Positions 30 to 38,379 of a DNA stretch of 41,599 nt are shown here, piece by piece. The DNA lies in the NCBI GenBank assembly GCA_964619725.1, contig CAZUFC010000071.1:1-41599 (forward strand), in the 5' to 3' direction. This DNA is from an uncultured bacterium (GTDB lineage: Bacteria > CSSED10-310 > CAZUFC01). Made by a program: the position numbers and the translations under genes. The stretch's first letter is position 1, and each line of letters starts with the position of its first letter. The notes under the pieces were generated by a model, which was not told the origin of the DNA, did no database searches, and worked only from the letters and a program-made list of their open reading frames with translations.

Positions 30-51
30 GAGCCTCTATGAGAAATCCGGG
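1..51 (-). mobile_element. Probable end of an insertion sequence (possibly IS1380-like) abutting or interrupting the giant adhesin gene
   Basis: The frame is open from base 2, but LYQKGGFSARASMRNP does not align with the adhesin's internal repeat, whereas alignment is clear from GYALGG onward. Read on the minus strand from base 51 the sequence is CCCGGATTTCTCATAGAG, followed by a strong promoter pointing out of the window. The family guess rests only on a CC-starting end. Confidence 0.5.
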
Positions 52-12000: not shown

Positions 12001-15000
12001 TGGATGGTATAACGACTTTGAAGACTACGCATGCGGCATCGAGGGACTGGCCGGTGAGGACTTCATCGCCTTTATTGAGGTTCCGGAAGTATGCGATGTT
12101 ACGCTTATGATCGATAACATAGAACCCGGGGATTACGATCCGATACTGTTGTTGCTGAATGGTCCGGGACCCGAATACTGCATCGCTTACGTCTACGATA
12201 ACGGAGAAGGAGAAGGCGAAATCCTCACCATGGACTCGCTGGCTCCGGGTAATTATTACGTCGTCGTCGATTCATACTCAGACTGCGGTTACTGGGATAT
12301 GACCTATTCGCTTGATGCATGCGCATCGCCTACCCCGACGCTGATACCTTCTTCCACGCCCTCGCCTACGCCCATACCGACGCAAACGCCCATTCCTCAG
12401 ACAAACTGCGGATGGAATAACGACTTCGAAGACTACGGCTGCGGCATCAACGGACTGGCCGGTGAAGACTTCATATCCTTCCTGGTCGTGCCAAACGTTT
12501 GCGATTTTACTCTTACTATCGATAATGTCAGGCCGCATCCTTTCGACGATGAATACGATCCTGTTCTGTTGCTTCTTGACGGACCTGATCCGCAAGATTG
12601 CATAATTTACGCCGACGCGAACGGTTCTAACCAGGGCGAAACCATTTCCATCGATTCTTTCGGTCCGGGGACCTATTACGCTGTTGTCGATTCGTATGAA
12701 TCATGCGGCTATTGGGATATGGTCTATTCCCTGGATGATTGTCGCACTCCGACGCCTGAAACTTCCCCCACTTCAACCGGCACGCCGACCTTCACGGCCA
12801 TCCCTACCGGCACGCCGATACCGCAAACCAACTGCGGATGGTACGACGACTGGCAGGATTACGCTTGCGGCATCAATGGACTGGAAGGTGAAGATTTCAT
12901 TACCTTCTTCGTCGTCCAGCAAATTTGCGACGTTACGCTTACCATCGACAACTTGACTCCGGGAGATTATGATCCCGTACTGCTTCTGTTGGACGGTCCG
13001 GGCCCCGAATTCTGCTTCGCTTACGCGGACGAACACGGAGCAGCCGAAGGCGAAAGCATTACCATTACGTCATTGCAGCCGGGAACATATTACGCTGTAG
13101 TGGATTCTTATGAAAGCTGCGGTTTCTGGAATGTCTCACTCACTTTCGACAACTGTATTACGCCGACTCCCATTCCAAGCGAAACGCCGATACCCCAGAC
13201 CAACTGCGGATGGTACGATGACTGGCAGGATTATTCATGCGGGATTTACGATCTTTACGGCGAAGATTTCATAACCTTCTTCGTCGTCAACCGGGTTTGC
13301 GACGTCACTTTATCCATAGACGGCATTATCCCTGAAAATTACGACCCCATACTGCTCCTTCTTGACGGTCCCGGCCCCTTGTATTGCTTCGCTTACGCGG
13401 ACGACAACGGAGCAGGCTCTGGTGAGAGCATAACCATTCCGGACATGGAACCGGGAAATTATTACGCTGTGGTGGACTCTTATGAGGACTGCGGATACTG
13501 GAACCTTTCGTATACGCTCGACAATTGTCAGACGTCTACTCCCAGTCCCACGCCGACCTATACCCCTACGCCGAATCCGCAATCCAATTGCGGTATGAAC
13601 GACGATTACCAGGACTACGGATGCGGCATCTCAGGGCTTTACGGCGAAGACCTGGGCATCTTCGTTGTCAACCATGAATATTGCGACGTTACCATCGCCA
13701 TCGAAAATGTCACGCCTTCAGAATACGACCCTGTCCTGCTTATTATGAGCGGTCCGGACCCGAGTGATTGCTTTATTTATGCTGACGACAACGGTCCGGG
13801 CGAGGGCGAATCCATTACGCTGTTAAGCCTTGAACCCGGGAACTATTTCGTCGTCATTGACTCCTACGAAGACTGCGGATATTTCAATTTCATTCAAGTC
13901 TTTGAAAACTGTCAGGTCTATTCTCCTACGCCAACCTTTACGCCTTCACCGGGCATCACTCCGACAACCACTCCTACGCATGTATGCACAACCATCTATG
14001 TGCCGCAGGACTACCTGACTATACAGGATGCCGTGAACGCTGCTCTGGACTGCGATACCGTTCTGATTGACGACGGCGTTTATACCGGAGATAAAAACAA
14101 AAACATCGATTTCAAAGGCAAAGCCATTACCGTAACATCGATAAACGGACCGGAAAATTGTGCAATAGACTGTGAATACGAGGGCAGAGGTTTCATCTTC
14201 TTCCGCGGAGAAGACAACGGTTCGGTTTTGAACGGCCTTGATATACGAAACAGCAGCGCTAATTACGGCTCAGGCATCTATATCCAGAATTCTTCACCGA
14301 TCATATCAAACTGTATTATTTCCTATTGCTCGTCCGAGTCCGACGGCGGCGGCATATACTGCGGCAATTCATCATCGCCTGAAATTACCGGTTGCAGCAT
14401 TGTCGGAAATTCCGCCGGCGGTATGGGCGGCGCCCTATACTGCAGGGATTACTCCGATCCGACCATCACGAACTGTTCGATCTCAGAAAATACCGCTGAA
14501 CACTGCGGAGGCATATACAGCTATAACGCCGCTCCACATGTATTGAACTGCTCCATTTACGACAACTACGGGTATCATAACGGCGGAGTCTATTGCGATA
14601 TCGGATCGGCATGCACGCTCGAAAACTGCACTATCTTCAACAACTCGTCGCTCGATCAGGGCGGCGCACTGCATTTTGCCGGCAGCAGCGAAAATGTCCT
14701 CCTTAAAAACTGCTTGTTGGCAGGCAATGCGACTGAAGAGTATGGAGGCGGCGTCGCATGCTGGTACGCTTCTCCCACTTTCCAGAATTGCACTTTTACT
14801 GAAAATTCGGGAGAAAACGGCGCCGGCGCTTTTTATTGCCTCAACTCCGCTCCAATCATTAAAAACTGCATCTTCTGGAACGACACGCCCAATGAGATTC
14901 AGACTGCAGGCGTTTCGGTCATCTACATAACATACTCCAATATACAAGGCGGCTTCGAAGGCGACGGCAATATCAACCAGAACCCCATGTTCGTCGATCC

Positions 15001-15298
15001 GGCCAACGCAGATTATCATCTGCAATCCACTATCGGAAGCTATCACAACGGTTCCTGGGAATCGGACGAAAATTGCTCACCCTGTATAGACGCAGGCGAT
15101 CCCGCCGATGCATGCAGCAACGAACCAGCCCCTAACGGCGATATAGTCAATATGGGCGCTTACGGAAATACTGCAGAAGCATCCATGTCATGCTATATGA
15201 TGGTCCCCGCCCTGTCGGCGCTGGGAATCATCATTCTGGCGGTATTGTTTGGTCTTGGACTGTCATCGAAAAGAGGAAAATACAGGCGCGAAAATTAG
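38..15298 (+). CDS. Giant (>=5086 aa, 5'-truncated) surface protein: tandem DUF1565-like right-handed beta-helix modules, Pro/Thr linkers, six Cys-containing PPC-like repeats, a final beta-helix module and an IPTL-CTERM-like anchor
   Basis: Five full modules start with (F/Y)(H/Y)VD..NG.D.NDG.SW.TAKASI and end with DYHL...SPCID.G...D(M/I)G(A/F)DE. GGG(I/L)Y beta-helix repeats occur throughout. Six QTNCGW...YY(A/V)V(V/I)DSY..CG(Y/F)W repeats lie at about 11580-13920. The C-terminus VPALSALGIIILAVLFGLGLSSKRGK is a TM helix plus basic tail. There is no signal peptide and the ORF starts mid-module. Confidence 0.85.
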   Translation: MRNPGYALGGALFCAQSSSPTFDGDILSCNTAYAYGHGSQYRARGYGYAYGGCIYAQASSAPSFSGCDITDNIAESYISSYYSSTAQAYGAGMFTGNAAIVELYDVLLSGNSTAGSMSNWWLGGAIYMDESADVSIDRSTIIANSASYGAALYYKITGGILTNSVLAANGSDAIYLTESDPAIFNVTIADNTGTAVYCNSSSPTITNCIMWGNDDDLDGCPQSSYSDIEEGTPDGAGTGNIIPPLNPIFLGGGDYHLQVISPCIDRGTNVGAPDHDIDGDVRPYAGGIADMGADETQEVNPTPTATAYSTPSMLISRMTTPTPAATDFHVDQANGDDSNDGLSWATAKASIQAGIDLVTVGGNVHVAEGDYYENLELISNLNLLGGYPAGGGARDPEVYVTVIDGGGADAAIKAETPGGYNSLIDGFTIRNGETSRGAGLYCLQFMGLTISNNIFTNNTAYSASGPVNGGAIASYASEVTITSNTITGNTALTTAESVEAQGGAIFNYYSVMTVSDNTITYNTASVTASSSSAQGGGICGVSHYDTLTISEHTLSYNTSMGSASNTMIQGGAIHCSGLNTAQIFNNEIAYNAAMTSGNPNNPEAMGGAVYYALTASDASISSNNILENKAYVNYNASGSPTNYAYGGGIYMAQDSSPLLSENSIVNNTAYAYALTNSSNRTATAYSYGGGLYCCEGSSPSLDGDMIVANTSYAYGHGSQYQSRGYGYAYGGGCCLIGVSVPTLSNFATVADNIAEGRVSSYYSSQGYSYGGGIYGDSDTSLHAENAIISGNSATGSHSCCWTGGGLWLNGAADLQFDKCDIRDNQATEGGGLYLSSCSGSFRNTFTVLNSSDGFKLSDSSPELYNLTIADNGGTGVECTGASTPVIVNCIFWDNYDDLDQCSATYSNVEEGAEGEGNLDPPVNPDFYGYGDYHLRFTSPCIDEGTSEDAPPDDFDSEVRPDPDTGLVDIGADEFYELLITPRPSPTKTPSATATYSPTPKPTSTFTLTPTSTPAPPYPDIYVDQNFGDDNNDGLSWGTAKASIGAALAATSAGFFNIHVAEGTYYENLVLWDGINLLGGYQAGGGLRDPETYTTIIDGQGLGPVILIVYSFAVTVDGFTVQNGQGAYGAGIYCYSSDAVSISSNTVTGNTAISGSSTVQGGGLYAYYSTISINDNTISENTSSISAGSSVACGAGFFGQELFDSSLTNNSIINNAAYASGSGSAAAGGALYFLDNIGSFAISSNTIENNTAEATGNATGSYGGAVYCSGYAATVLENNEISGNCAQNNSPSASGTVRGGGVYWGIAGTASTISGNVISANSAYSYYNSSGSREYDARGGGMYIDELSCPNMIGNDITSNQAYCYTKTNSQNRTATSYACGGGIYCALSSSPSMSGDTISGNTAYAYGHASQYQSTGYAYAYAGGIYFVGSAGPVMSDFTSISDNKAEGGVSSYNSSQGYVYGGGIYCGENGALNAETVILSGNVCTGTNSGCWFGGGAYFNLSGPVSFDRCETVDNTATYGAGHYANGTDGVYTNCFVVSNSSDGFYLDDASPELTNLSIANNGGTGVKCLNGSSPVITNCIVWFNGDDLHTCPQASYSDIGEGAPDGEGAGNFIPPVDPVFLGGGDYHLSDHSPCIDRGTDIGAPDHDIDGEFRPYAGTITDMGADETDSMNPTVLPTITETPTATPTFTPTATITPEDDHFYVDGINGDDSNDGLNWETAKASVQGGINLVSGSGIVHVAATTYYENVSLTSGVTLLGGYPPGGGTRDPAVNVTVIDGDHNDCAFKAENGQDAVIDGFTVTNGDASLGGGIYCLNFDGMTVSNNIITGNTVSSGSDGVKGGGIYSYNSSITIESNTVTGNTANSSASGGYAHGAGVYCGVYDTAVINENQITANLSATSGTSAESAGGGLVCQVFSGTLTVAGNTLTENTAQSDGGGSKTKAGGFYCSGAGVADIADNQITNNVAQTSGNPNNAEAYGGGVYHAVLNYGSTMTDNVISDNRAYVYYNSSGSPTNYAYGGGFYMAENSSPSLSGNVISSNTAYSYSRSNSQNRTANSYAYGGGLYCCEGSSPSFNGDLISFNTAYAYGHASQYQSTGNAYVYGGGCYFYGSSSPSFSHDATVSSNGSEGRVTTYYSSQAYAYGGGIYAGADVALNAEDSFITGNYIAGSDASNWYGDGFYFNGSTNVDFDRCDIRENAASTGGGLYLNESDASFSNCFVVLNADDAFYLYDSSPDLMNMTIADNNGTAVECTGTSSPTIVNCIMWDNGDDLDNCSATYSDIEEGAEGEGNIDPPVNPDFFGYGDYHLRYTSPCIDEGTSTGAPPDDFDGEARPNPSSGLIDIGADEFYESDITATPQPTKTPSRTPTYSPTATNSPTPSLTPTTTPTLPYPDLYVDQTNGNDENDGSSWGTAKASIGSALDAASSGFCNIHVAEGNYQENLILFDGINLLGGYPAGGGEREPATYVTTIDGGEIDSTLTIVFCLSVAVDGFVIQNGLQEYGGGLYCFSAMDIEISNNVITGNTAYSVSSDAFGGGVYALDSWITVSGNTVTDNTSVSTADSHYVRGGGIYIEGAMDSTITGNEITANFCYASGSGATAAGAGMYTLDHVGTLSVTSNELTDNIAQASGNAVTALGGGLHCAGNSTLGVTNNVITGNKAQNSSPSASWGTVRGGGVYCDVAGTAATLSGNDISQNSAYSYYNASGSSEYNARGGGMFIDEFSSPYMSENTITSNTAYCYTRTNSQSRTVTSYAYGGGIYCAQFSSPHMNGDTIAGNTSYAYGHAVQYRSTAYGYAYAGGIYFTGSSEPVIYGFSSVTDNLAEANNSSYYTAYSYTYAGGIYCGEGAALNAETFLVSGNACAGSHSGNWTGGAGYFYQSGPVQFDRCEILDNSATYGAGFYNNATDGIFTNCFVVANSSEGFYLDAASPELMNLTIADNSGTGVRCEGASSPVITNCIVWNNSDDLSGCPQASYSDIGEGSPDGDGIGNFIPPLEPLFIDVDDYHLHELSPCIDRGTNLGTPDHDIDGDSRPYAGKIADMGADETLATNPTPLPTITQTATPTPTFTPTPTVTPDDNEYYVDGINGSDFNDGRNWETAKASIKAAIDLVQDAGVVHVAAETYYENISMKSGLSLLGGYPPGGGARDPETNVTIIDGSAGWNVIVAENAQDISIDGFKITNGDAQYGAGIYCYNVRNMVVSNNVITQNTAESSSSDTFGGGLYAHHSGLEIIFNDISDNRSLTSFEGAVAYGAGIYCDGDSRISIAGNTITDNTAYGSGSTSNAAGGALSSFDSCTDVLANVIENNYAQAYGSSLGGGIHCEESEPTNISGNTVAANTAEGLGINSRAYGGGMHLTIPDSKARLEDNIIQSNAAYIYYYSSGSPTGKCYGGGVYLGENCDPVMLENFIDSNCAYAYCRTNSSSRQAYAYSYGGGIYGADGASPLISSGTITANTSYAMGHAAQYNSRGYAYAYAGGVYLSDNSVTTVNADCLISGNIADAYGYGNYTPTSQSFGGGFYCTGASTSLTLIDVELTLSSADSNISNNAFGGAMYLHSITPQFDRTSITGNTADIGGGIYLYETNGGSFQNLLIQGSSSHAVYSVDSDPSIVNDTIADNGNGIFCTGTTLPVIWNCILWNNNDDLNGCTATYSDVEDGDPGEGNIAQNPNFFGSGDYHLFFMSPCINAGTNDGAPTLDIDKQSRPNESVTDMGFDEVHAFPPNTPTPTNTPSPGPTCQPLSTFTPTSHPTYFPTDTPTLTPTPTVTLSPTITLTPTETLTPTITLSPTASPTLTPTLSPTATLSPTQPPTLTPTFSPTPDMTSTRTPTFTVTSTETPTETVVPTPIPTSTPIHQTNCGWYNNFEDYACGISGLAGEDFITLFEVSEVCDITLSMYNVTPQDYDPILLLWDGAGPEHCFIYVDDNGQGEGETITIAGLEPGNYYAVIDSYESCGYWDLSLTIENCASVTPTPIYTTTSTPTAIPTGTPIPQTNCGWYNDFEDYACGIEGLAGEDFIAFIEVPEVCDVTLMIDNIEPGDYDPILLLLNGPGPEYCIAYVYDNGEGEGEILTMDSLAPGNYYVVVDSYSDCGYWDMTYSLDACASPTPTLIPSSTPSPTPIPTQTPIPQTNCGWNNDFEDYGCGINGLAGEDFISFLVVPNVCDFTLTIDNVRPHPFDDEYDPVLLLLDGPDPQDCIIYADANGSNQGETISIDSFGPGTYYAVVDSYESCGYWDMVYSLDDCRTPTPETSPTSTGTPTFTAIPTGTPIPQTNCGWYDDWQDYACGINGLEGEDFITFFVVQQICDVTLTIDNLTPGDYDPVLLLLDGPGPEFCFAYADEHGAAEGESITITSLQPGTYYAVVDSYESCGFWNVSLTFDNCITPTPIPSETPIPQTNCGWYDDWQDYSCGIYDLYGEDFITFFVVNRVCDVTLSIDGIIPENYDPILLLLDGPGPLYCFAYADDNGAGSGESITIPDMEPGNYYAVVDSYEDCGYWNLSYTLDNCQTSTPSPTPTYTPTPNPQSNCGMNDDYQDYGCGISGLYGEDLGIFVVNHEYCDVTIAIENVTPSEYDPVLLIMSGPDPSDCFIYADDNGPGEGESITLLSLEPGNYFVVIDSYEDCGYFNFIQVFENCQVYSPTPTFTPSPGITPTTTPTHVCTTIYVPQDYLTIQDAVNAALDCDTVLIDDGVYTGDKNKNIDFKGKAITVTSINGPENCAIDCEYEGRGFIFFRGEDNGSVLNGLDIRNSSANYGSGIYIQNSSPIISNCIISYCSSESDGGGIYCGNSSSPEITGCSIVGNSAGGMGGALYCRDYSDPTITNCSISENTAEHCGGIYSYNAAPHVLNCSIYDNYGYHNGGVYCDIGSACTLENCTIFNNSSLDQGGALHFAGSSENVLLKNCLLAGNATEEYGGGVACWYASPTFQNCTFTENSGENGAGAFYCLNSAPIIKNCIFWNDTPNEIQTAGVSVIYITYSNIQGGFEGDGNINQNPMFVDPANADYHLQSTIGSYHNGSWESDENCSPCIDAGDPADACSNEPAPNGDIVNMGAYGNTAEASMSCYMMVPALSALGIIILAVLFGLGLSSKRGKYRREN

Positions 15299-15813: not shown

Positions 15814-16560
15814 TTAATACTTCCCGATGTACTCCTTCCCGGTTTTGATAAGGGAATCGCCCGGCTGCCATCCTGCAGGCGCCGCCTGGCCGGGGTTCGC
15901 CTTCACAGCCTGCATGGCCTTTATCTGCCGAATCAGTTCCTCTACATTTCTTCCAACCGGTTCGGTCAATACTTCTACGGCCTGCACTATACCGTCAGGG
16001 TCAATTATGAATCGCCCCCTGTGGTTCAGTCCCGACGAACTCTTCCATACGCCGTACGCTCTTGATACGTTGCCGCTCGGATCGGAAGCCATTGCGTACC
16101 AAACGTTCTTAACCGTCGGGGAGGTCTTTTTCCACATCCAATGCGAGAAATGAGTGTCGGTGCTTATAGCGATTACTTCTACGCCCAATTCCTTCAACTC
16201 TTTTTCGGCGGCTGCGACCGCAGCCAGCTCAGTCGGTCAGACGAATGTGAAATCAGCAGGATAGAAACAAATGACTCGCCATTTTCCATTATAGTCGGAA
16301 AGTTTAACCATTTTAGTTTCGTCTCCCACAACAGCCGGCAGCTCAAAGTTGATCGCATGCTCACCAGGCATCGGCATATGCGAAGAGGTCATTGCATCTT
16401 CAGTCGCTTCCCCTTCTTCTGCAGGTTTGTTCTCCGAAGGAGTCCCGCACGCGCCGAGAACCTGTGCATTGACCGCCGCAGGCATATAAATCTGAGCGGC
16501 GCAGACCAGAATAAACACCGCAAACATTGACAAATAAAACTTTTTACTCATCATCTTCAT
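15814..16560 (-). CDS. prxU: Selenocysteine-containing peroxiredoxin (AhpC/Prx1, PrxU-type) with an N-terminal signal peptide; 248 aa with UGA read as Sec
   Basis: ORF-track entries 16237-16560 and 15814-16197 are in the same frame and join as FYPADFTFV-TGA-PTELAAV, the peroxidatic motif. Downstream motifs ISTDTHFSH, RGRFIIDPDG and GRNVEE are present. RBS GGAGG lies before the ATG at 16560. Confidence 0.93.
16210..16225 (-). promoter_or_regulatory. Bacterial SECIS-like hairpin
   Basis: The mRNA reads GGCUGC-GGUC-GCAGCC, a 6-bp stem starting 11 nt after the UGA (16237-16239) with a GGUC apical loop. Confidence 0.8.
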
Positions 16561-17127: not shown

Positions 17128-20100
17128 ATGATGAAAAAAGATTTAACGGGATTAAAAAGTTTTTTGATCGTATTTTCGTTTTTCGTTTTGATGAGGATGC
17201 CTTTTTGCAGGGCTACGGATTGCGGCGATCCGGAGTATTCTCCCGGCGAGATATTGTTAAAATTGAAGGCCGGTTACGCTCTGCAAAGCGCTGCGGCTTT
17301 TCAGGCGTTGAATCAAAAGTACGGCGTAACTGAATCGAAACAGCTTTTCAAGAATTTCGATCCTTCTCGCATAAAGCAAAAGAGCGTACCGGGATTACTG
17401 GAAGCGCCCGATTTATCGAATATTTTCAAATTAAAACTGTCCGAGACGGCGGATATTATTAAGGCCGTCGAGGAGTACAACCAGGCGGACGGCGTGGAAT
17501 ATGCGGAACCGAATTACATTGCGCGAGTCATGGGGATACCGGATGATACCTATTTCGATCAGCAATGGGGGCTTGACGACATCGATGCGCCGGAAGCCTG
17601 GGACATAACCACGGGCAGTCCCGATATCATAATTGCGATAATTGATACCGGCATAGACCGTGATCACCCGGACCTGGACGACAAAATATGGACCAATGCC
17701 GGCGAGATACCCGGCAACGACGTGGACGACGACGGGAACGGCTACGTGGATGATGTGTGGGGATGGAACTGGGCATCGGTCGAGCAGGACCCGGACGATT
17801 ACGATTTCGATAATCCCAGGGATGATAACGGACACGGCACCCATGTGGCGGGAATCGCCGCTGCCGAGACCAACAACGCCCAGGGCGTGGCAGGGGTATG
17901 CCCGGACTGCGGAATTATGTCGCTCAAGGCGTTCCGCAGTGACGGGACCGGGAATTATTCGGATATTGCTGAAGCGATTTATTATGCGTCGGATATTGGA
18001 GCGAAGGTGATTAATATGAGTTTTGCCGGAGAATCGCATTCAGCCACGATGGAAAATGCCCTGGCCGTGGCTTATTCGTCGTCGCTGCTGGTCGCCGCCA
18101 CGGGAAATAACGCCTGTCGTATCGGAGTTCCCGGCTGTTACTGCTGTGGGCTTTTTTGTTGCGGCAACAGGTTTTTTCCCGCCGCTTATAACTTCGTACT
18201 TGGTATCGGGGCTGTTAAATCGAACGGAGAAAGACCCTTATTTTCAAATTACGACCAGGATGGGTCTTGCTTCAGCGCATTCGATCAGGAATACAATTAT
18301 GACTTCGATGCTCCGGGAAGCAACATCTACAGTTCAATGTTCGGAAGCGCATACGGATCGATGACGGGAACATCGATGGCCGCGCCTTTCGCGTCGGGTA
18401 CGATCGGATTGCTTATCGATTATCATCCTGATTGGTCGCATGAATTAATTCGCGGGCAGTTGAACCATGCTTCTGATAATTTAAATGCCTATTCTGAGCT
18501 GACGGTTGTTCCTGAACCTCATCTGGTCTTCCAGGACGGCAATGAAACGTATGACGACAGCGCCGGAGATAATGACGGAAGGGTTGATTCAGGTGAAACC
18601 GTCGGACTAATTATCCCTTTAAAGAATTATTGGGGACAGGCCGAGGGCGTAACGGCAACCCTTACCAGTTCTGATCCCTGGGTAACTATCGTCAATAATA
18701 CGTCCGTTTACGGAACCATTTCCCCGTATGCTTCAATGGATAATACCGGCGATATGTTCATATTTTTTCTGTCCGAGGATTGTCCGAACAACCATACTGT
18801 AAGTTTGGATATTTCAATTACAGCCAATGAAGGAGATTATTCCTCACAAATATCCGTCTCTTTTGATGCTGAACGGGGGATGGAATTATATGGCAGCATA
18901 TCTATCGATACAACATTACATTCAGATTACCTTTACATAGTTACCGGTAATCTTTACGTAGAACCTGGCGTAACGCTCACTCTCGAAAAAGGTCTGCGCT
19001 TGCAGTTCTTTCCCACACTCTATATGAGGGTCGACGGCACAATTATGGCTGTTGGAACCGAAGAAGAACCGATAGTTTTTACATCTAATTCTACCTCTCC
19101 AACGTCTGGCGACTGGGGATATATCCATCTTTATGGCAGCAGCAACGATGCTGTTTATGATGCCTATAATAATTATATTAGCGGAGCCACAATACAATAT
19201 GCCAATATTGAATATGCTAGTACTGGTTTAATATTAACATCTTGCGAACCGTATATTGCTCATAATTATATTGCTTTTAATAATTCCACCGGGACAGTAA
19301 AAGCCGGCGGTATTTTCTCCACCGGTATTGATGTAAGTCCTTTAATTTGTCATAATGTTATTTCACATAACATCTCACAAACACATCAAGCTGCTGCAGG
19401 AGTACATTTAGATGGCGGCGGAATTTTGCAAAACAATACTATCATTGAAAATTCTTCGGCACGGACAACTGCCGGCGTTTACGCAACCAACGCAATTATT
19501 GAAGAAAATTTGATTTTACACAATAAATCGGAAGGATATGAAGGAGGAGCAATTAAAATAGTAGATAGTTTTTTAAATAAAAATTTGATTGCTTATAATG
19601 AATTGAAAGCAGGGAGTCATTTTGCCGGCGGAGGCGGCTTATGTTCTGAAGGTGATGCTTCAGCAATAACTAATAATACAATTATTGGCAACATTGTTGA
19701 TGGTGATGGGATATATAGAGTATTTGGAAGCGGTGTTTTATTGTTATTCAACAACTCTATCGAATTCAATAGCAATAATATATACGGCAATACTTGCTTA
19801 AATAACCCCAACGTGGACTCTGAATTCTCTATAAGATACATGAATGACATCAACATACCAAACAACTGGTGGGGAACGACCGATACGGATATAATCGACG
19901 ACATGATTTGGGATTTCTATGATGATCCGGATAATTTCCCAGGGAAGGTAATCTATGAACCGATTGCAACGGAACCCATATCAACGGCGCCGCCGGTATT
20001 AGTTGATGTAACTCTTGATCCACTGAGTCCCGTCGGCGCGGAGACCGTCACCTTCACCCTGACTTTCAGCAAACCAATGGATACGTCAGTTGATCCGTTC

Positions 20101-20169
20101 ATCACATTCGGAGTAGACGATCCGTTCACTCAGCATCAAATAACCGGTTCCTGGGACGTTGTGGAATAG
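17128..20169 (+). CDS. Secreted S8 subtilisin-like serine protease with prodomain, Ig-like and beta-helix domains, ending in the N-terminal half of an Ig-like domain
   Basis: Signal peptide; prodomain end VEYAEPNY; catalytic triad IAIIDTG, HGTHVAG, GTSMAAP; oxyanion ATGN; NNWWGT-type beta-helix end; terminal TFTLTFSKPMD motif. Confidence 0.92.
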   Translation: MMKKDLTGLKSFLIVFSFFVLMRMPFCRATDCGDPEYSPGEILLKLKAGYALQSAAAFQALNQKYGVTESKQLFKNFDPSRIKQKSVPGLLEAPDLSNIFKLKLSETADIIKAVEEYNQADGVEYAEPNYIARVMGIPDDTYFDQQWGLDDIDAPEAWDITTGSPDIIIAIIDTGIDRDHPDLDDKIWTNAGEIPGNDVDDDGNGYVDDVWGWNWASVEQDPDDYDFDNPRDDNGHGTHVAGIAAAETNNAQGVAGVCPDCGIMSLKAFRSDGTGNYSDIAEAIYYASDIGAKVINMSFAGESHSATMENALAVAYSSSLLVAATGNNACRIGVPGCYCCGLFCCGNRFFPAAYNFVLGIGAVKSNGERPLFSNYDQDGSCFSAFDQEYNYDFDAPGSNIYSSMFGSAYGSMTGTSMAAPFASGTIGLLIDYHPDWSHELIRGQLNHASDNLNAYSELTVVPEPHLVFQDGNETYDDSAGDNDGRVDSGETVGLIIPLKNYWGQAEGVTATLTSSDPWVTIVNNTSVYGTISPYASMDNTGDMFIFFLSEDCPNNHTVSLDISITANEGDYSSQISVSFDAERGMELYGSISIDTTLHSDYLYIVTGNLYVEPGVTLTLEKGLRLQFFPTLYMRVDGTIMAVGTEEEPIVFTSNSTSPTSGDWGYIHLYGSSNDAVYDAYNNYISGATIQYANIEYASTGLILTSCEPYIAHNYIAFNNSTGTVKAGGIFSTGIDVSPLICHNVISHNISQTHQAAAGVHLDGGGILQNNTIIENSSARTTAGVYATNAIIEENLILHNKSEGYEGGAIKIVDSFLNKNLIAYNELKAGSHFAGGGGLCSEGDASAITNNTIIGNIVDGDGIYRVFGSGVLLLFNNSIEFNSNNIYGNTCLNNPNVDSEFSIRYMNDINIPNNWWGTTDTDIIDDMIWDFYDDPDNFPGKVIYEPIATEPISTAPPVLVDVTLDPLSPVGAETVTFTLTFSKPMDTSVDPFITFGVDDPFTQHQITGSWDVVE

Positions 20170-20176
20170 AAGGGAT

Positions 20177-23100
20177 ATGCGGGAACCTGAAATGAAATGC
20201 CTACTAAAAAATAAAAAAAGCATAAGAGGCAGTCGATCAAGACCGATCCGGTTTGTTCCGACGATTAGTCTGTTTTTGATCTTTCAATGCCTTGTCCAGG
20301 CGCAAACTCCGACGGTGACGACAACGCCGGCATATACTCCAACCGTGACGCCTGTGCCCGTGTATCAGTGGACGGGAACGTGCGACGTCGATGTGACGAC
20401 TGGCGACGGGAACAATACCATCCGGGTAACCGGCGCATACGATACAAACGGCATGCTGTGCCCGTCGGATACCCGGTTTCAGTTCATCATACAGACGGCG
20501 GGATCGGCGGCCATGCTGTTGAATGCGACGGCTGGATGGGGTCAGCTCGAGTTGTCGTGGACGCCGGACGATATGGAAGACCTGCTGGCTTATATCTTGT
20601 ACCGAAGCATCGGCGATAATGAAAATTATGAACTATTGACGGTCGTGGACAAGGACACGAACTCTTACGTCGATTCCGATGTCGATAATGGGACTGTTTA
20701 CTATTATTATTACACCATCCAGGATACTGATTTCGGGGAGACTCAGGCGTCGAATGAAGCATCGGCTGTACCGGGCGATTTTACGCCTCCGACCATCCCT
20801 GTGGTGATAGACGACGGGGATGATACGGACGAAGATGATATGTTGCATGCTTCCTGGAGTTCGTCCGATCCGGAAACGGAAATTGTGGAATATAAGTATG
20901 CTGTCGGGACGACTCCCGGCGGAACCGATGCCCGGGACTGGACTTCGACGGGAACTGATGCCGAAGCGACTGCTGCAGGATTGAACCTGGTTCGCGGACA
21001 GGTCTATTATTTTTCGGTCAAGGCGAAAAACGGGTGGAACTTATGGAGCGATGAGGGATACAGCGACGGTATATTCATAAATTACGACACGATAGCGCCC
21101 GGCGATGTTACAGGTTTAACGGCTGATCCGGACGACGGACAAATACTATTGAGCTGGACGAATCCTGCGGACGATGACTTCGTCGGCGTTCTTATCAGGC
21201 GTCGCGACGATGATTATCCTGCCGGTCCTGAAGACGGCGATTTTGTTTACGACGGTCCTGCAGAAACTTTTACGGATTTCGATTTAAACAATGGAACGAC
21301 TTATTATTACAAGGCGTTCGCTCATGATGCCGAACCCAATTACGCCGAGGGCGTCCAGATAAGCGTTGCGCCGGTTGACGGACCGGGACCGGCGAATGTT
21401 ATAAACTTCACATGCGTCTCGGGAGACGGGCAGGCGGACCTGAGCTGGACGAATCCATCGGACCCCGGTTTCTCAGGCGTAAAGATACTCCGCAGCACGG
21501 AAGATTATCCGTCAGGTCCGAACGATGGAACCGGGGTCTATGACGGGAACGGAACATCGCATTCGGACCAGGGATTAATCAACGGCCTGACCTATTATTA
21601 TACGGCCTTCTCGTATGATTCTACGCCGGAGTATTCCTCGGGCGTTCATGCATTGGGAACGCCGACGGATATGACGCCGCCGGGCGATGTCGCGGGTTTT
21701 ACGGCCATGATGGATGATGAAGCGATTCAGCTCGACTGGACCAATCCGGGGGACCCAGATTTCGCCGGCGTCTTGATCCTGCGAAAGACCGATGATTATC
21801 CGGCTGATCCTTCTGACGGGGATGAAGTATACAACAGTCCGGGGAACTCATTTACGGATGCCGGGTTAACCAACGGTCAAACGTATTATTACGCTGCGTT
21901 CGCTTACGACGGGATACCCAATTATTCAACGGGCAGCCAGGCATCGGCGGTTCCTGAAGACGTCGAACCGCCGGATGATGTTAGCGGCCTGACGGCTCAA
22001 CCCGGTTACGAACAGATGACGTTACGGTGGCAGAATCCCGTCGATTCAGACCTTGAAGGGATAAAGGTCCTTCGCAAACCGGACGATTTCCCGACAAGTC
22101 CTTTCGACGGAACTGAGGTTTATAACGGTCTGGACGAAGAGATGACCGATACAGGTCTGACTTACGGCGAACCCTATTATTATGCCGTGTTCAGCTATGA
22201 TGAAGTTCCGAACTGGTCGCCGGGGGCGTTCGTTTCCGCTACAACTGCAGCGATAACGCGATGGACGGGAACTTATGATGTCGATGTTTCGACCGGCGAC
22301 GGGATCAACACGATCCGGGTGAGCGGAGCGAAGGATTTCAACGGTATGGAGTCTCCCACTGATGCCAGGTTCCAGTTCATTATTCAGACGTCGGGTTCGC
22401 AGGCTATGCTGCTCAATGCGACGGCAGGCTGGAGCCAAGTTGAGCTGTCCTGGACGGAATGCGATCTTGAGAACCTGTTGGCTTATATTCTATACCGCAG
22501 CGTGGGCGACAATGAGAATTACGAGCAGTTGACCGTAATGAGCAAGGATTCGACGAGTTTCCTGGAAGAAGATGTAGAAAACGGGACCGTATATTATTAC
22601 TATTATTCGATCATGGATACAGGATTCAATGAAACGCACAGTTCCAACGAGGCATCGGCAGTGCCCGGCGATTTTACGCCGCCGACCGTTCCGCTGATTA
22701 CGGACGACGGCGACGCGACGGACCGCGCGTCGGAACTGCATGCGAGCTGGAGTTCCGGGGACCCGGAAACAGGCGTAGTCGAATATATTTATGCCATAGG
22801 TGATTCTCCAGGCGGGATAGAGGTTGTCAGTTGGACATCTGTGGGAACGGACGCTGAAGTCACGAAAACAGGATTGAACCTGACGAGAGGAGAAACTTAT
22901 TATTTCAGCGTCAAGGCGAAAAACGGCTGGGACCTTTGGAGCGACGAGGGATACAGTGACGGTATATTTGTGAATTACGACATCGCGCCGCCGGATGATG
23001 TTTCCGGTTTGACTGCGGAACCGGACGATATGCAGATACTGTTAAGCTGGACCAATCCGGGGGATGAGGATTTTGCCGGCGTCAAAATTCAAAGAAGTAC

Positions 23101-25624
23101 GGACGTTTATCCTTCTGAACACGACGATGGTTTCACGGTTTATGACGGCGACGGCGTATCATGTTTCGACGTCGATCTGACCAATGGAATAACCTGTTAT
23201 TATACTGCTTTCGCTTACGACGGCGTACCAAACTATTCGAGCGGCGTTCAGGCGGAGGCAGCGCCTGCGAACGCAGCGGGACCGAGTAATGTCGTGGGCT
23301 TTGCTGCGGTCGCCGGCGATGAAGAAGTTCACTTGAGCTGGACTGCGCCGGCAGACCCGGCATACGCAGGCATAAAAATACAGAGAAGCGCGGACGATTA
23401 TCCAGCGAGTCCTGAGGAGGGGACCACGGTCTACGAAGGAGCGGATACCGGATATACGGACGCAGGATTGACTAACGGCATCCTGTATTATTACGCTGCA
23501 TTCTCCTATGATGCAACGCCTGAATATTCATCGGGAGTCAATGCTTCAGCGCAGCCTGCGGATATGACGCCGCCCGGCGAGGTTTCCGATTTTACTGCTA
23601 CTCCAGGGGATGAACAGAACGAGTTGAGCTGGACGAATCCGGGGAGTCCTGACTTCGCCGGCGTCAGGATAATGAGGAAAACTACGGATTATCCGGCAGG
23701 ACCGTTTGACGGGACCATGGTCTATGAAGGGATGGAAAACGGCTGCACTGATCAGGGACTCATCAACGGCGAAACCTGTTATTACACGGCATTCACTTTT
23801 GACGGGATACCCAATTATTCAGCGGGCAGCCAGGCTTCGGCAACCCCCGCCGATGTTGAAGCGCCGGCGGACGTGTCGAATGTGCAGTCGAATCCGGGAT
23901 ATGAGCAGATCACATTGAAATGGACAAATCCTGAAGATGCTGATTTAGCCGGTATTAAAATAATCAGAAGAGACGACGATTCTCCCGCGCATCACGAAGA
24001 CGGCGATGAAGTTTACGACGGGTTGGATGAAAAGTTCACCGATACAGGTCTCACTTATGGAGAAGATTATTACTATGCGATTTTTACTTATGACGTAGTC
24101 CCCAACTATTCTTCGGGCGTGCAATCCATGACGACCACCGCAGCTATAACAAGATGGATAGGTTCCTATGATGTTAATGTCGCCACGGGAGACGGCATCA
24201 ACACCATACGGGTCGCCGGCGCTTATGATTTCAACGGTATGGAAGCGCCGACCGATACCCGTTTCGATTTCGTCATTCAGACGGCAGGCTCCGCCGCCAT
24301 GCTGCTCAACGCAGCCGCCGGCTGGAGCCAGGTCGAATTATCCTGGCCGGAAACCGATCTGGAAACGCTTTTGTCATACAATATATATCGAAGCATTGGG
24401 GATAATCAAAACTACGAGTTGTTGACCGTGGTAGGAAAGGATACGACCGAATACGCCGATTCAGAATTGGAAAACGGGACCGCCTATTATTACTACTATT
24501 CCATAATGGATACGGATTTTAATGAGACTCAAGGTTCCAATGAAGCTTCCGCCGTTCCTGACGACTTTACAACGCCCACGGTTCCGCTGGTAACCGACGA
24601 TGGAGATACGACAGATGTATGGACGGAGTTGCACGCAGTCTGGAGCGCAGAAGACCCGGAATCGGGAATAAGCGAATACCAGTATGCGATAGGATTGAGC
24701 CAGAGCGGTAATGAAATAGTCGATTGGACCTCGACGGGCATGATGACGGAAGTTACTCACAGCGGATTAAATCTTAATCCTGGAGAAACCTATTATTTCA
24801 GCGTTAAAGCGAAAAACGGCCGGGGGCTCTGGAGCGACGAAGGATACAGCGACGGCATTACCGCCGTTTATGATACGAAGCCGCCGGGGAACGTGGAGGA
24901 TTTTACGGCCATACCCGGGGATGGGACCGTAAGCTTAAGCTGGACGAATCCCGGAGACGCTGATTTCGCCGGCGTGGCGATATTAAGCAAAACCGACGAA
25001 TTCCCCGCAGACCATACTGACGGCGAAACGGTATACGACGGTTCAGGAGATTCAACGGTTCATCAGGGCTTAACAAACGGTCTAACCTATTACTACGCAG
25101 TATTCTCGTATGACGAAATACCGAATTATTCATCAGGCTCGTTCATCACTGCCGTTCCCCTGGCGCCGACATCAACGCCTACTGATACGCCAAGCCTTAC
25201 GCCGACTTATACACAAACCCCGACAAAGACTCCAACGACGACTCCAACCCTATCGCCGACTCGCAGCCCCACTGGAACTCCGACTGATATACCGATAAAA
25301 ACTCCTACCCTATTGCCGACAGAAACCCCAACCGACACGCCGACTAATACTGGTACAACAACACCGACAAGATCACCCACAAGAAGCCCGACTCAAACGC
25401 CGACTCCGACAATTACTTATACGTCGCCCTTCACTCCGACAAACACCAAAACCATAACACCGACCAATTTGCCGACAGCCCTTTTTACCGGGACTCCCAT
25501 CTGTAGCCCAACACCAACACCCACATCAGGTATGCAAACCATTCCCTCGGTTCATCCGGTTGGTTTGGCGCTCCTGGTTATTTCCGTCAGTCTGATGATT
25601 TATGCGTTGAGAGAGAATAAATGA
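20177..25624 (+). CDS. Acidic cell-anchored multi-FN3 protein: three 631-aa-period repeats (third incomplete), about 15 FN3-like domains, Pro/Thr stalk, IPTL-CTERM-like anchor
   Basis: Likely start is ATG 20177 or 20192. Signal peptide ends in LVQA/QT. Repeated LSWTNP.D.DF.GV.I.R...D.GL.NG..YYY motifs. C-terminus is IPSVHPVGLALLVISVSLMIYALRENK. Confidence 0.88.
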   Translation: MREPEMKCLLKNKKSIRGSRSRPIRFVPTISLFLIFQCLVQAQTPTVTTTPAYTPTVTPVPVYQWTGTCDVDVTTGDGNNTIRVTGAYDTNGMLCPSDTRFQFIIQTAGSAAMLLNATAGWGQLELSWTPDDMEDLLAYILYRSIGDNENYELLTVVDKDTNSYVDSDVDNGTVYYYYYTIQDTDFGETQASNEASAVPGDFTPPTIPVVIDDGDDTDEDDMLHASWSSSDPETEIVEYKYAVGTTPGGTDARDWTSTGTDAEATAAGLNLVRGQVYYFSVKAKNGWNLWSDEGYSDGIFINYDTIAPGDVTGLTADPDDGQILLSWTNPADDDFVGVLIRRRDDDYPAGPEDGDFVYDGPAETFTDFDLNNGTTYYYKAFAHDAEPNYAEGVQISVAPVDGPGPANVINFTCVSGDGQADLSWTNPSDPGFSGVKILRSTEDYPSGPNDGTGVYDGNGTSHSDQGLINGLTYYYTAFSYDSTPEYSSGVHALGTPTDMTPPGDVAGFTAMMDDEAIQLDWTNPGDPDFAGVLILRKTDDYPADPSDGDEVYNSPGNSFTDAGLTNGQTYYYAAFAYDGIPNYSTGSQASAVPEDVEPPDDVSGLTAQPGYEQMTLRWQNPVDSDLEGIKVLRKPDDFPTSPFDGTEVYNGLDEEMTDTGLTYGEPYYYAVFSYDEVPNWSPGAFVSATTAAITRWTGTYDVDVSTGDGINTIRVSGAKDFNGMESPTDARFQFIIQTSGSQAMLLNATAGWSQVELSWTECDLENLLAYILYRSVGDNENYEQLTVMSKDSTSFLEEDVENGTVYYYYYSIMDTGFNETHSSNEASAVPGDFTPPTVPLITDDGDATDRASELHASWSSGDPETGVVEYIYAIGDSPGGIEVVSWTSVGTDAEVTKTGLNLTRGETYYFSVKAKNGWDLWSDEGYSDGIFVNYDIAPPDDVSGLTAEPDDMQILLSWTNPGDEDFAGVKIQRSTDVYPSEHDDGFTVYDGDGVSCFDVDLTNGITCYYTAFAYDGVPNYSSGVQAEAAPANAAGPSNVVGFAAVAGDEEVHLSWTAPADPAYAGIKIQRSADDYPASPEEGTTVYEGADTGYTDAGLTNGILYYYAAFSYDATPEYSSGVNASAQPADMTPPGEVSDFTATPGDEQNELSWTNPGSPDFAGVRIMRKTTDYPAGPFDGTMVYEGMENGCTDQGLINGETCYYTAFTFDGIPNYSAGSQASATPADVEAPADVSNVQSNPGYEQITLKWTNPEDADLAGIKIIRRDDDSPAHHEDGDEVYDGLDEKFTDTGLTYGEDYYYAIFTYDVVPNYSSGVQSMTTTAAITRWIGSYDVNVATGDGINTIRVAGAYDFNGMEAPTDTRFDFVIQTAGSAAMLLNAAAGWSQVELSWPETDLETLLSYNIYRSIGDNQNYELLTVVGKDTTEYADSELENGTAYYYYYSIMDTDFNETQGSNEASAVPDDFTTPTVPLVTDDGDTTDVWTELHAVWSAEDPESGISEYQYAIGLSQSGNEIVDWTSTGMMTEVTHSGLNLNPGETYYFSVKAKNGRGLWSDEGYSDGITAVYDTKPPGNVEDFTAIPGDGTVSLSWTNPGDADFAGVAILSKTDEFPADHTDGETVYDGSGDSTVHQGLTNGLTYYYAVFSYDEIPNYSSGSFITAVPLAPTSTPTDTPSLTPTYTQTPTKTPTTTPTLSPTRSPTGTPTDIPIKTPTLLPTETPTDTPTNTGTTTPTRSPTRSPTQTPTPTITYTSPFTPTNTKTITPTNLPTALFTGTPICSPTPTPTSGMQTIPSVHPVGLALLVISVSLMIYALRENK

Positions 25625-30627: not shown

Positions 30628-31164
30628 GTGAATCCATTGTTCAGAGAATTTAAGAACAGGATGTTGCCGGCGGCGCTGATATTAACTTTTTTGATGTCAT
30701 TTTCAGGTTCTCTTCATGCCGGAGGACAAAGCAGCGATAATTTTGCAGTCCCGCGGGATGATTTCAGCGGGGGTTCAGGAGAGGTGAGTTCTGGAAATTT
30801 CATCGTCAACGCCTCAACGGGACAGAGTTCCCCGATCGGGATATCCTCCTGTCCGAGTCATATTGTTTTCGGGGGTTATTGGGGAGCGATGGCTCCGGTA
30901 ATACCTCCGACGCCGGAACCGACTGAGACTCCGACGATAACGCCGACATCGGAGCCAACGGACATAGCGACTGAAGCGCCGACAGGATTGCCGACGCAAC
31001 CGCCGACCGAAACTCCGGCAGCGGCGACGCAAACGCCGACGATAACCCCGACGGTTGCTCCGGTCCCGGCGATCGGCGTACCGGAGACAATATTTTTACT
31101 GCTGATATTGGGAATATCAATGACTGTATCAGCAGGGACAAGAAGAAAGGAGAGAATTGAATGA
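30628..31164 (+). CDS. Small anchored protein: signal peptide, about 55-aa Gly/Ser-rich domain ending GGYW, Pro/Thr linker, IPTL-CTERM-like anchor
   Basis: Signal ends SLHA. Domain is [17 protein letters not shown]...GQSSPIG...GGYW. Tail is [29 protein letters not shown]. Its stop overlaps the next start (ATGA at 31161-31164). Confidence 0.8.
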
Positions 31165-38322: not shown

Positions 38323-38379
38323 TAGTGCCTGTCCATAAACTCGATTCTCGATTCAAAATTTAGTGCTGGACGGTCACTA
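38323..38379. repeat. 57-bp family A element, copy 3; overlaps the stop codon of the convergent fibre gene
   Basis: TAGTGCCTGTCCA...TGGACGGTCACTA. The terminal CTA (38377-38379) is the TAG of the minus-strand gene. Confidence 0.85.

What the first reader, a model, noticed from the sequence alone, without database searches (positions are those of the whole stretch)
19987..24295. One Ig-like domain split across two genes: candidate protease-display scaffold using fold complementation
Seen: the subtilase stops right after PPVLVDVTLDPLSPVGAETVTFTLTFSKPMDTSVDPFITFG...QITGSWD (19987-20169) and has no anchor. The next gene has its own signal peptide and linker, then WTGTCDVDVTTGDGNNTIRVTGAYDTNGM..SDTRFQFIIQT. 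That 45-aa piece recurs, well conserved, at 20369, 22262 and 24155 at the head of each repeat, never with the first half in front of it. Known: 'TFS.PMD' and 'V.GA.D..G....F.F' are the early and late signatures of one Big_5/SbsA-type Ig-like sandwich. Inference: the halves complement in trans, so one anchored FN3 rod could dock up to three proteases. This would be a cellulosome-like assembly using split-domain docking instead of cohesin-dockerin.
Basis: partly seen in the sequence, partly recalled or inferred. Interest (0 to 1): 0.9.

Follow-up and report, generated by a model that had tools for sequence, protein, structure and literature searches.

The report
Protease and scaffold share one split domain
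A secreted protease gene stops halfway through a small beta-sandwich domain, and the next gene, a surface-anchored rod, carries the missing half three times, so the two proteins probably snap together by completing that fold.

Summary
Subtilase gene A (17128-20169) ends after four of the seven strands of an FN3/Ig-like sandwich. Gene B (20177-25624) has its own signal-peptide-like start and carries the other three strands at 20369, 22262 and 24155, never with the first half in front.

Every homologue examined has the two halves joined in one chain:
- 15 of 15 genome loci
- 10 of 10 and 9 of 9 database proteins
- 9 metagenome loci and 6 further genome loci

Several homologues are collinear single genes: subtilase, whole domain, then the same two FN3 domains. 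A and B are therefore products of an insertional fission inside a domain.

Independent contigs from three runs of one study reproduce the junction without differences.

The three partnerless C-halves are under purifying selection: pN 0.135-0.184 against saturated pS 0.62-0.75. One of them (C-half 2) is modelled at low confidence alone (pLDDT 46-58) and forms the full sandwich with the protease tail in a complex model (score 0.79, best control 0.00).

Trans fold complementation that tethers the protease to a possibly trivalent scaffold is the best reading. It is shown only in silico and in one genome, and the split was found nowhere else. The Big_5/SbsA label is not supported.

The parts
17128..20169 (+). 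Gene A: secreted subtilase (P0001, 1013 aa). Parts: N-terminal hydrophobic leader, fervidolysin-like prodomain, S8 catalytic domain, long middle region, 'NNWWGTTD...DFYDD' module, N-half of the sandwich.
17623..18483 (+). Peptidase_S8 catalytic domain (residues 166-452). The DTGID, HGTHV and GTSMAAP motifs are present.
   Evidence: 172.7 bits; motif positions
19969..20157 (+). N-half of the FN3/Ig-like sandwich, strands A, B, C and C'/D (residues 948-1010). It is followed by VVE and the TAG stop at 20167-20169.
   Evidence: E 5.6e-30; strand map by homology to the model; 26 of 27 conserved columns kept
20158..20368 (+). Inserted segment that replaces the 4-9 residue D-E loop. It holds the end of A (VVE, stop), B's start codon (20177 or 20192), the signal-peptide-like leader (to about 20302) and a 22-residue P/T linker (20303-20368). 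No source was found elsewhere in the genome.
20177..25624 (+). Gene B: FN3 scaffold (P0009, 1815 aa) with leader, linker, 2.5 repeat units, P/T linker and C-terminal anchor.
20369..20497 (+). C-half 1 (strands E, F, G). It is the direct fission partner of the N-half.
   Evidence: E 1.8e-22
22262..22390 (+). C-half 2, internal. It follows an FN3 domain after a linker of about 5 residues and has no N-half before it. This copy was used in the complex and monomer models.
24155..24283 (+). C-half 3, internal, with no N-half before it.
20369..24154 (+). Two full 1893-nt repeat units. Each holds a C-half, FN3A, FN3B and four 97-residue FN3 domains. A third, shortened unit runs from 24155 to about 25150.
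25151..25621 (+). P/T-rich linker, then the C-terminal tail IPSVHPVG + hydrophobic helix + RENK (from about 25541). The tail belongs to a genome-wide class of C-terminal signals.

Best explanation
An ancestral single gene for a surface-tethered subtilase was cut in two. Its order was prodomain, S8, middle region, WWG module, seven-strand FN3/Ig-like sandwich, FN3A, FN3B, then a tether. An insertion of about 210 nt in the loop between the fourth and fifth strands of the sandwich made the cut. The insertion supplies a stop, a new start and a signal-peptide-like leader with a P/T linker.

The protease (gene A) now ends with strands A-B-C-C'. The scaffold (gene B) begins with strands E-F-G. The unit 'E-F-G half plus FN3 domains' has been triplicated in B.

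Proposed mechanism (inferred): both proteins are exported unfolded. The protease's half-domain co-folds with a C-half on the scaffold, with strand E pairing with B and strand F pairing with C. This rebuilds the sandwich and so ties the protease non-covalently to a rod. The rod is held at the cell envelope by a P/T linker and an exosortase-type C-terminal signal. The two internal C-halves would be further sockets, giving up to three proteases per rod.

Shown: the fission, the collinearity with single-gene homologues, the constraint on the partnerless C-halves, and the junction in independent contigs.

Inferred: binding, valency, and surface location.
For: 1. One domain, two genes. The N- and C-halves are adjacent in every homologue examined:
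- 15 of 15 loci in the window's own genome and three same-phylum genomes
- 10 of 10 domain-bearing proteins among the 157 stored
- 9 of 9 domain-bearing proteins among 50 further hits
- 9 metagenome loci, one of them cut by its contig end
- 6 genome loci

2. Collinearity. P0004, P0075, P0148, P0154 and P0157 carry prodomain, S8, middle region, N-half, C-half, FN3A and FN3B in one chain, matching A followed by the first unit of B; all but P0154 also match the WWG module.

3. Constraint. Between the three repeats the C-half has pN 0.135-0.184 while pS is 0.62-0.75, near saturation. The four FN3 domains compared in all three pairs have pN 0.16-0.36. The family-conserved core columns are kept in 16, 15 and 16 of 18 positions in the three C-halves and in 26 of 27 in the N-half. 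The N-half is the part of P0001 most similar to seven homologues: 47-63% against 42-52% for the S8 domain.

4. Models:
- The whole domain of a paralogue folds as seven strands at pLDDT 93-96, and the split falls between strands 4 and 5.
- FN3-C-half 2-FN3A modelled alone gives FN3 domains at block-mean pLDDT 79-95 but the C-half at 46-58.
- With the protease tail added, the complex score is 0.79 (three runs: 0.82, 0.79, 0.79) with best control 0.00. Partner pLDDT is at least 76, the runs agree in at least 84% of contacts, and there are about 200 contacts.
- By the tool's calibration this mark was reached by 58 of 80 solved complexes and 2 of 110 mismatched pairs. These counts hold only roughly, because my own alignments were used.
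- In the controls the tail falls to pLDDT 32 without the scaffold, and the scaffold falls from 86-87 to 77-79 without the tail.

5. Operon-like layout. There are 7 to 22 nt between A's stop and B's start, and no terminator-like site between them.

6. Junction in other assemblies. It is identical in contigs of three runs from one study. One of those runs may be the source of this DNA.

7. Physical precedent. An engineered FN3 monobody cut in a loop reassembles from two fragments (PMC11666773, passages read).

8. Anchor. 65 ORFs of at least 300 aa in this genome end in a P/T linker, an (I/V)P[AST]...G motif, a hydrophobic helix and a basic tail, gene B among them. One exosortase-family match is present.
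Against: - The split was found in this one metagenome-assembled genome only. No relative keeps it, and no close relative is held (the nearest genomes are of the same phylum but other families). There is therefore no evolutionary replication.
- The age of the split is unknown. If it is recent, the intact N-half says nothing about function.
- Constraint on the C-halves shows that they matter, not that their partner is the protease tail.
- The complex model is of the kind that passes by likeness. It joins two halves of a common fold, and the alignments were my own and shallow (9 and 16 rows), so it shows compatibility only.
- The monomer model rests on 9 rows, and only one of its five models reached mean pLDDT 78.5; the others reached 48-51.
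- Only C-half 2 was modelled with the tail. C-halves 1 and 3 were not.
- No signal-peptide predictor was available, so the leader is judged by eye and by hydropathy.
- NCBIfam recognises no sorting signal in B's tail.
Confidence: 0.5

Rival explanations
1. The fission set the protease free. It is now simply secreted, with the N-half as a tolerated leftover. The C-half modules of gene B are conserved for a role that needs no N-half, such as binding another ligand, acting as a spacer, or folding in a way the models miss.
For: No relative keeps the split. The age of the split is unknown. Constraint on the C-halves does not name their partner. The monomer model is shallow: 9 rows, and four of five models reached mean pLDDT 48-51.
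Against: A four-strand half-sandwich with an exposed core is an unlikely thing to keep intact, yet 26 of 27 conserved columns are kept. The C-halves keep the hydrophobic pattern that packs against the N-half in whole domains. In the models each half gains confidence only when the other is present.
Confidence: 0.27
2. The C-halves pair with each other, within one scaffold or between scaffolds, to make a sandwich of E-F-G strands. This would compact or cross-link the rods, with the protease tail not involved.
For: There are three similar half-domains in one chain, but only one gene in the genome has a free N-half.
Against: The core pattern kept in the C-halves is that of the heterologous N/C interface. 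The monomer model with one C-half says nothing either way.
Confidence: 0.1
3. The split is a recent lesion or an artefact: a disrupted gene on its way to loss, a minority strain allele, or an assembly error.
For: It is seen in a single MAG with 6.5% contamination. Depth is low (summed contig depth 8.56 in the best run) and only contigs could be laid, not raw reads.
Against: A 10,167-nt contig of run X1 covers 19700-20900 with no difference. A contig of X3 (20135-20320) bridges A's stop and B's leader. A contig of X2 (20342-20504) bridges the linker and C-half 1. No variant or joint lies at the junction. Both genes are long intact ORFs, 1013 and 1815 codons. The insert carries an ordered leader and linker, not random sequence. 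The internal partnerless halves are old, with saturated pS.
Confidence: 0.08
4. Translational recoding, a +1 shift near 20144-20166 where B's frame is already open, makes one fused protein. The 70-residue insert would then sit as a loop in the domain.
For: B's frame is open from 20144 and overlaps the end of A.
Against: I see no slippery motif or stimulatory element. The insert looks like an export leader, which has no use inside a fused chain.
Confidence: 0.03

Closest known systems
Donor-strand complementation and exchange in chaperone-usher pili (recalled knowledge, not tested here)
   Same: An incomplete Ig-like sandwich in one secreted protein is completed by strands from another polypeptide, giving a very stable non-covalent link outside the cytoplasm.
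   Different: In pili a single strand is donated to a six-strand subunit, and a chaperone and an usher are needed. Here the cut is 4 + 3 strands and arose by fission of a normal domain. The partners are an enzyme and a multi-socket scaffold. The window ORFs scanned against Pfam (the ORFs of 120 aa or more from 15814 to 40797 and the giant ORF upstream; antisense and nested frames left out) gave no chaperone or usher family.
Cellulosome-type display (dockerin on the enzyme, repeated cohesins on an anchored scaffoldin)
   Same: An enzyme without its own anchor sits next to a gene for a repeat scaffold with a repeated docking module and a C-terminal anchor. Homologues of this same protease carry Dockerin_1 (P0004, P0157) and Cohesin (P0157).
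   Different: Neither window gene has a cohesin or a dockerin. The proposed plug and socket are two halves of one fold, not two complete domains, and no calcium-binding dockerin motif is involved.
Engineered fragment complementation of FN3 domains (split monobody)
   Same: A seven-strand FN3 sandwich cut in a loop reassembles from an N- and a C-fragment (PMC11666773, passages read). That paper cites Dutta et al. 2005, whose title I saw only in a reference list; the paper itself is not held.
   Different: That system is man-made and cut in the CD loop. This one is natural and cut one loop later, between strands C'/D and E. It also has the C-fragment repeated three times inside a larger protein.
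Single-gene homologues: subtilase with whole sandwich, FN3A and FN3B (P0004, P0075, P0148, P0154, P0157; own-genome paralogue P0007)
   Same: Same domain order and 42-63% identity in the S8 domain and N-half. The paralogue P0007 ends in the same kind of P/T linker and anchor.
   Different: In all of them the domain is whole and the protease is tethered in cis. None has a partnerless half.
Insertional gene fission into complementary genes (for example mitochondrial cox2, PMC5374615; title and abstract start seen in the listing only)
   Same: An insertion splits one gene into two that must work together.
   Different: That case is a membrane respiratory subunit in animal mitochondria. This one is a secreted bacterial beta-sandwich with later multiplication of one half.

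Membership tests
Peptidase S8 (subtilase) | Match to the family profile above its cut-off, and an Asp/His/Ser catalytic triad | tested here: met
   PF00082 at 172.7 bits against a cut-off of 21.8. The DTGID, HGTHV and GTSMAAP motifs start at residues 173, 236 and 414. That these motifs hold the triad is recalled knowledge.
Big_5 / SbsA-type bacterial Ig-like domain (PF13205) | Match of the domain to the Pfam profile | tested here: not met
   No Pfam family at E <= 10 for the N-half, for the C-halves, or for the whole domain of the two own-genome paralogues.
FN3 / Ig-like seven-strand beta-sandwich (fold level) | Seven strands in two sheets; structural likeness to solved FN3 domains | tested here: met
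   The AlphaFold2 model of the paralogue has seven strands at pLDDT 93-96. The best Foldseek PDB matches are tandem FN3 structures, best E 1.8e-08, prob 1.00, TMq 0.32-0.52 over the two-domain model. The contacts in the complex model (E with B, F with C) fit this topology.
Cellulosome (cohesin-dockerin) | Dockerin on the enzyme and cohesin repeats on the scaffold | tested here: not met
   No Dockerin_1 or Cohesin hit in P0001 or P0002. They are present only in the homologues P0004 and P0157.
Chaperone-usher donor-strand complementation | A subunit lacking only the last strand; a periplasmic chaperone and an outer-membrane usher encoded nearby | tested here: not met
   The split is 4 + 3 strands. 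No chaperone or usher family was found among the window ORFs scanned. Small ORFs were not all scanned.
Exosortase-type C-terminal sorting signals (PEP-CTERM / IPTL-CTERM kind) | Short motif, then a hydrophobic helix, then a basic cluster at the very C-terminus, in many proteins of one genome, together with an exosortase gene | tested here: inconclusive
   65 ORFs of at least 300 aa share a P/T linker, (I/V)P[AST]...G, a helix and a basic tail. There is one PF09721 match at 35.5 bits, above the cut-off, and no sortase PF04203 was found in a genome 90.86% complete. NCBIfam finds no signal model in gene B's tail. Cleavage and attachment cannot be tested here.
Trans fold complementation between gene A and gene B | Physical binding of the two halves into one domain | not testable with these tools
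   There is model support only: score 0.79, best control 0.00. The C-half is at low confidence alone.

The most novel reading that the evidence does not exclude
A natural multivalent docking system built from a split fold. Three conserved half-domains on an anchored FN3 rod act as sockets. The complementary half-domain at the end of a secreted subtilase is the plug, and co-folding of the two replaces cohesin-dockerin as the way to display an enzyme on a cell surface.
Probability: 0.38. Interest if true: 0.85.

Novelty: new variant of a known kind. Interest (0 to 1): 0.66.

Why it matters
If the halves do co-fold, this is a natural case where gene fission inside a domain created a protein-protein docking pair, and duplication of one half then raised the valency. 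That is a route to modular enzyme display different from cohesin-dockerin and from single-strand donation in pili.

It would also give a small natural split-FN3 plug and socket for protein engineering.

It bears on how mid-domain gene fissions can survive at all. The conserved, partnerless half-domains are hard to explain without a partner supplied in trans.

It is directly testable with two short recombinant fragments.

Tried and rejected
- Source of the insert. A DNA search and a protein search of the window's own genome with 20140-20380 and 20177-20365 found only P/T-linker noise. No target-site duplication or terminal inverted repeat lies at the insert; the short matches found are of a size common by chance.
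- Relatives that keep the split. None was found in 40 other genomes, in the 150 best of 10258 representative hits, in 12 metagenome loci, in 8 genome loci, or in 50 proteins from the profile search. No close relative of this organism is held, so conservation of the split could not be tested.
I used a single protein instead.
- Expression. No RNA holder was listed.
- Family name. Pfam and NCBIfam give none for the split domain.
- Literature. Three full-text searches on fold complementation, split domain, gene fission, and strand complementation with Ig-like and surface display found no natural half-domain docking of an enzyme to a scaffold. This is weak evidence, because the searches match words only.
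- Dutta et al. 2005 is not held.
- Recoding was considered and set aside.
- Earlier notes of this scan. There are none on this genome or on this sequence.
Full report
**What is in the sequence**

Gene A (17128-20169, +) encodes a 1013-residue subtilase.
- Pfam finds Peptidase_S8 (residues 166-452, 172.7 bits) and a fervidolysin-type prodomain.
- The DTGID, HGTHV and GTSMAAP motifs are present.
- After a long middle region and a 'NNWWGTTD...DFYDD' module the protein ends ...PPVLVDVTLDPLSPVGAETVTFTLTFSKPMDTSVDPFITFGVDDPFTQHQITGSWDVVE, followed by TAG at 20167-20169.
- It has no C-terminal anchor.

Gene B lies in a different frame.
- A's frame has further stops right after 20169.
- The public gene call starts B at ATG 20177 (P0009, 1815 aa). 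A second ATG lies at 20192.
- B opens with a basic stretch, a hydrophobic stretch and ...VQA/QTP, which is signal-peptide-like. This was judged by eye and by hydropathy; no predictor was available.
- A 22-residue P/T linker follows, then WTGTCDVDVTTGDGNNTIRVTGAYDTNGMLCPSDTRFQFIIQT at 20369.
- The rest is a repeat with an 1893-nt period and copies at 20369, 22262 and 24155, 68-73% identical in DNA.
- Each unit holds the 43-residue piece, two distinct FN3-like domains (FN3A, FN3B) and four 97-residue FN3 domains. The third unit is cut short after one of these.
- The gene ends in a long P/T linker and the tail IPSVHPVG-hydrophobic helix-RENK.

**The two pieces are halves of one domain**

The window's own genome (the window is a whole 41.6-kb contig of a 9.17-Mb, 344-contig assembly) holds two paralogues in which the tail of A and the head of B are adjacent in one chain. 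These are C102 and C18.

I built one profile for each half from contiguous homologues.
- Gene A has only an N-half (E 5.6e-30).
- Gene B has only three C-halves (E about 1e-22 each).

Elsewhere the two halves are always joined, 3-7 residues apart in most (up to about 20 in divergent subfamilies):

| Set examined | Domain-bearing | Contiguous |
|---|---|---|
| Loci from the own genome (2) and three same-phylum genomes (13) | 15 | 15 |
| The 157 proteins stored after | 10 | 10 |
| 50 further proteins from a profile search | 9 | 9 |
| 12 metagenome loci | 9 | 9 |
| 8 genome loci | 6 | 6 |

- Some rows of these sets are the same protein seen twice. For example P0007 is the C102 paralogue.
- In the metagenome set, all 9 run straight on from the N-half into strand E. 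One (L048) is cut by its contig end. The C-half profile itself scored in 6 of the 9, and for the rest I read the continuation in the printed sequence.

In the window the 4-9 residue loop between '...ITGSWD' and 'W(T/I)G...' is replaced by about 210 nt that carry A's stop and B's start, leader and linker.

**A and B were one gene**

P0004, P0075, P0148, P0154 and P0157 match P0001 region by region: prodomain, S8, middle region, N-half (the WWG module is matched in all but P0154). They then continue in the same chain with the C-half, FN3A and FN3B of gene B's first unit.

The own-genome paralogue P0007 is a subtilase with the whole domain, one FN3, a P/T linker and an anchor tail.

The ancestral state was therefore a protease tethered in cis, and the window shows an insertional fission inside a domain. 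I found no source for the insert and no transposon-like ends.

**Fold**

- An AlphaFold2 model of the whole paralogue domain with its FN3 has seven strands: 20-26, 35-42, 53-57, 68-72, 77-83, 91-98 and 111-118. pLDDT is 93-96.
- The window's cut corresponds to the loop between strands 4 and 5, so the split is 4 + 3.
- Foldseek against the PDB returns tandem FN3 structures (best E 1.8e-08, prob 1.00, TMq 0.32-0.52).
- Pfam gives nothing for the halves or for the whole domain at E <= 10. 'FN3/Ig-like sandwich' is supported; 'Big_5/SbsA' is not.

**Is it real DNA?**

- Four runs of one microbial-mat study hold the stretch.
- A 10,167-nt contig of X1, which may be the source sample, covers 19700-20900 without a difference.
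- A contig of X3 (20135-20320) bridges A's stop and B's leader.
- A contig of X2 (20342-20504) bridges the linker and C-half 1.
- No variants, indels or joints lie at the junction.
- These are contigs at low depth, so a minority unsplit allele cannot be excluded.

**Are the partnerless halves functional?**

- Between the three repeats, synonymous sites are near saturation: pS is 0.62-0.75 in the C-half and up to 0.88 elsewhere.
- The C-half has pN 0.135-0.184, as low as or lower than the FN3 domains at 0.16-0.36.
- The duplication is therefore old, and the C-halves that never had an N-half in front of them have been held by selection since.
- They keep 16, 15 and 16 of the 18 family-conserved columns, including the alternating hydrophobic residues of strands E, F and G.
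- The N-half keeps 26 of 27 conserved columns.
- The N-half is the segment of P0001 most similar to seven homologues: 47-63% identity, against 42-52% for the catalytic domain.

**Models of the proposed docking**

I modelled an internal socket in its real context: the last FN3 of unit 1, C-half 2 and FN3A (window 21962-22672), with alignment A1 of 9 rows.
- Alone, in AlphaFold2, the two FN3 domains score block means of 79-95 and the C-half 46-58. Only one of the five models reached mean pLDDT 78.5.

With the 71-residue protease tail added (alignment A2, 16 rows) the complex tool gave the following:
- Scores of 0.82, 0.79 and 0.79 (median 0.79), with best control 0.00.
- Partner pLDDT of at least 76.
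- Agreement between runs in at least 84% of contacts, with about 200 contacts.
- By its calibration the mark was reached by 58 of 80 solved complexes and 2 of 110 mismatched pairs. This holds only roughly, since my own alignments were used.
- The interface is the whole C-half (chain 1 residues 96-146) against nearly the whole N-half (chain 2 residues 11-69).
- Strand E (101-107) lies beside strand B (30-36), and strand F (116-119) beside strand C (51-53), as in an intact sandwich.
- In the controls the tail drops to pLDDT 32 without the scaffold, and the scaffold drops from 86-87 to 77-79 without the tail.

Two halves of a common fold are exactly the kind of pair that passes by likeness to solved structures. 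This result shows that the halves are still compatible. It does not show that they bind.

**Context**

- A's stop and B's start are 7-22 nt apart, with no terminator-like site between them.
- The contig also encodes a 5086-residue beta-helix protein and two collagen-repeat proteins.
- 65 ORFs of at least 300 aa in the genome end in a P/T linker, (I/V)P[AST]...G, a hydrophobic helix and a basic tail, gene B among them.
- One exosortase-family match is present and no sortase was found.
- Homologues of the protease in other organisms carry dockerin, cohesin, BACON or T9SS tails, so tethering is a recurring theme of this protease family.
- One same-phylum genome's locus (L012) reads the same as a locus titled Candidatus Schekmanbacteria (L056) over the stretch printed. 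That is probably the window's phylum.

**Reading**

*Most likely (about 0.5).* The fission kept the old function by trans complementation. Both products are exported, and the protease's four-strand half co-folds with a three-strand half on the scaffold. Triplication of the socket unit made the rod multivalent.

*Main rival (about 0.27).* The protease is now free, and the C-halves serve another purpose.

*Lesser rivals.* Self-pairing of C-halves (0.1), a lesion or artefact (0.08), and recoding (0.03).

*Precedents.*
- Split FN3 monobodies that reassemble from two fragments (PMC11666773, passages read).
- Strand donation in pili (recalled).
It is a parallel I did not test.

*Limits.*
- One genome only, with no relatives close enough to replicate or date the split.
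- Models only for binding.
- One C-half modelled out of three.
- No expression data.

Noticed in passing
whole genome G000 (e.g. C8, C39, C119, C132); window 25541-25621: 65 ORFs of at least 300 aa end in a P/T-rich linker, an (I/V)P[AST]...G motif, a hydrophobic helix and a basic tail. This is a genome-wide C-terminal signal reminiscent of the PEP-CTERM/IPTL-CTERM kinds (names recalled). One exosortase-family match lies at C134:13003-13455, and no sortase was found.
   Followed up: partly
window 38-15298 (+): A giant 5086-residue ORF with Beta_helix matches throughout (six matched stretches in each half) and a NosD-like stretch. It runs to the contig start region.
   Followed up: partly
window 31161-33557 (+) and 38377-40797 (-): Two proteins of about 800 residues with collagen triple-helix repeats.
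   Followed up: no
L002 (G000:C18:116-3310), ORFs 2607-3194 (-) and 733-2310 (-): In the C18 paralogue the beta-helix part and the part with whole domain, FN3 and anchor lie in different frames with a gap of about 300 nt. This may be a second broken or split gene of the family, or a frameshift error.
   Followed up: no
window 15814-16197 (-): A 127-residue peroxiredoxin-like ORF matches only positions 56-123 of the 124-position AhpC-TSA profile, so it looks truncated at its N-terminus or wrongly started.
   Followed up: no
P0004, P0157, P0075 (homologues from other metagenomes): The same protease architecture ends in dockerin plus a T9SS sorting domain, in cohesin plus dockerin, or in a BACON domain in other organisms. 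The tether of this protease family is swapped often.
   Followed up: partly
window 20381-20383 and 20459-20461: C-half 1 alone has two cysteines, one in strand E and one in the F-G loop. Copies 2 and 3 have Y and S or A there. This may be a disulfide special to the first socket.
   Followed up: no
L056 versus L012: A locus titled Candidatus Schekmanbacteria reads the same over the printed stretch as a locus of G004, a 'same phylum' genome. G004 has 11 copies of the whole domain.
   Followed up: partly
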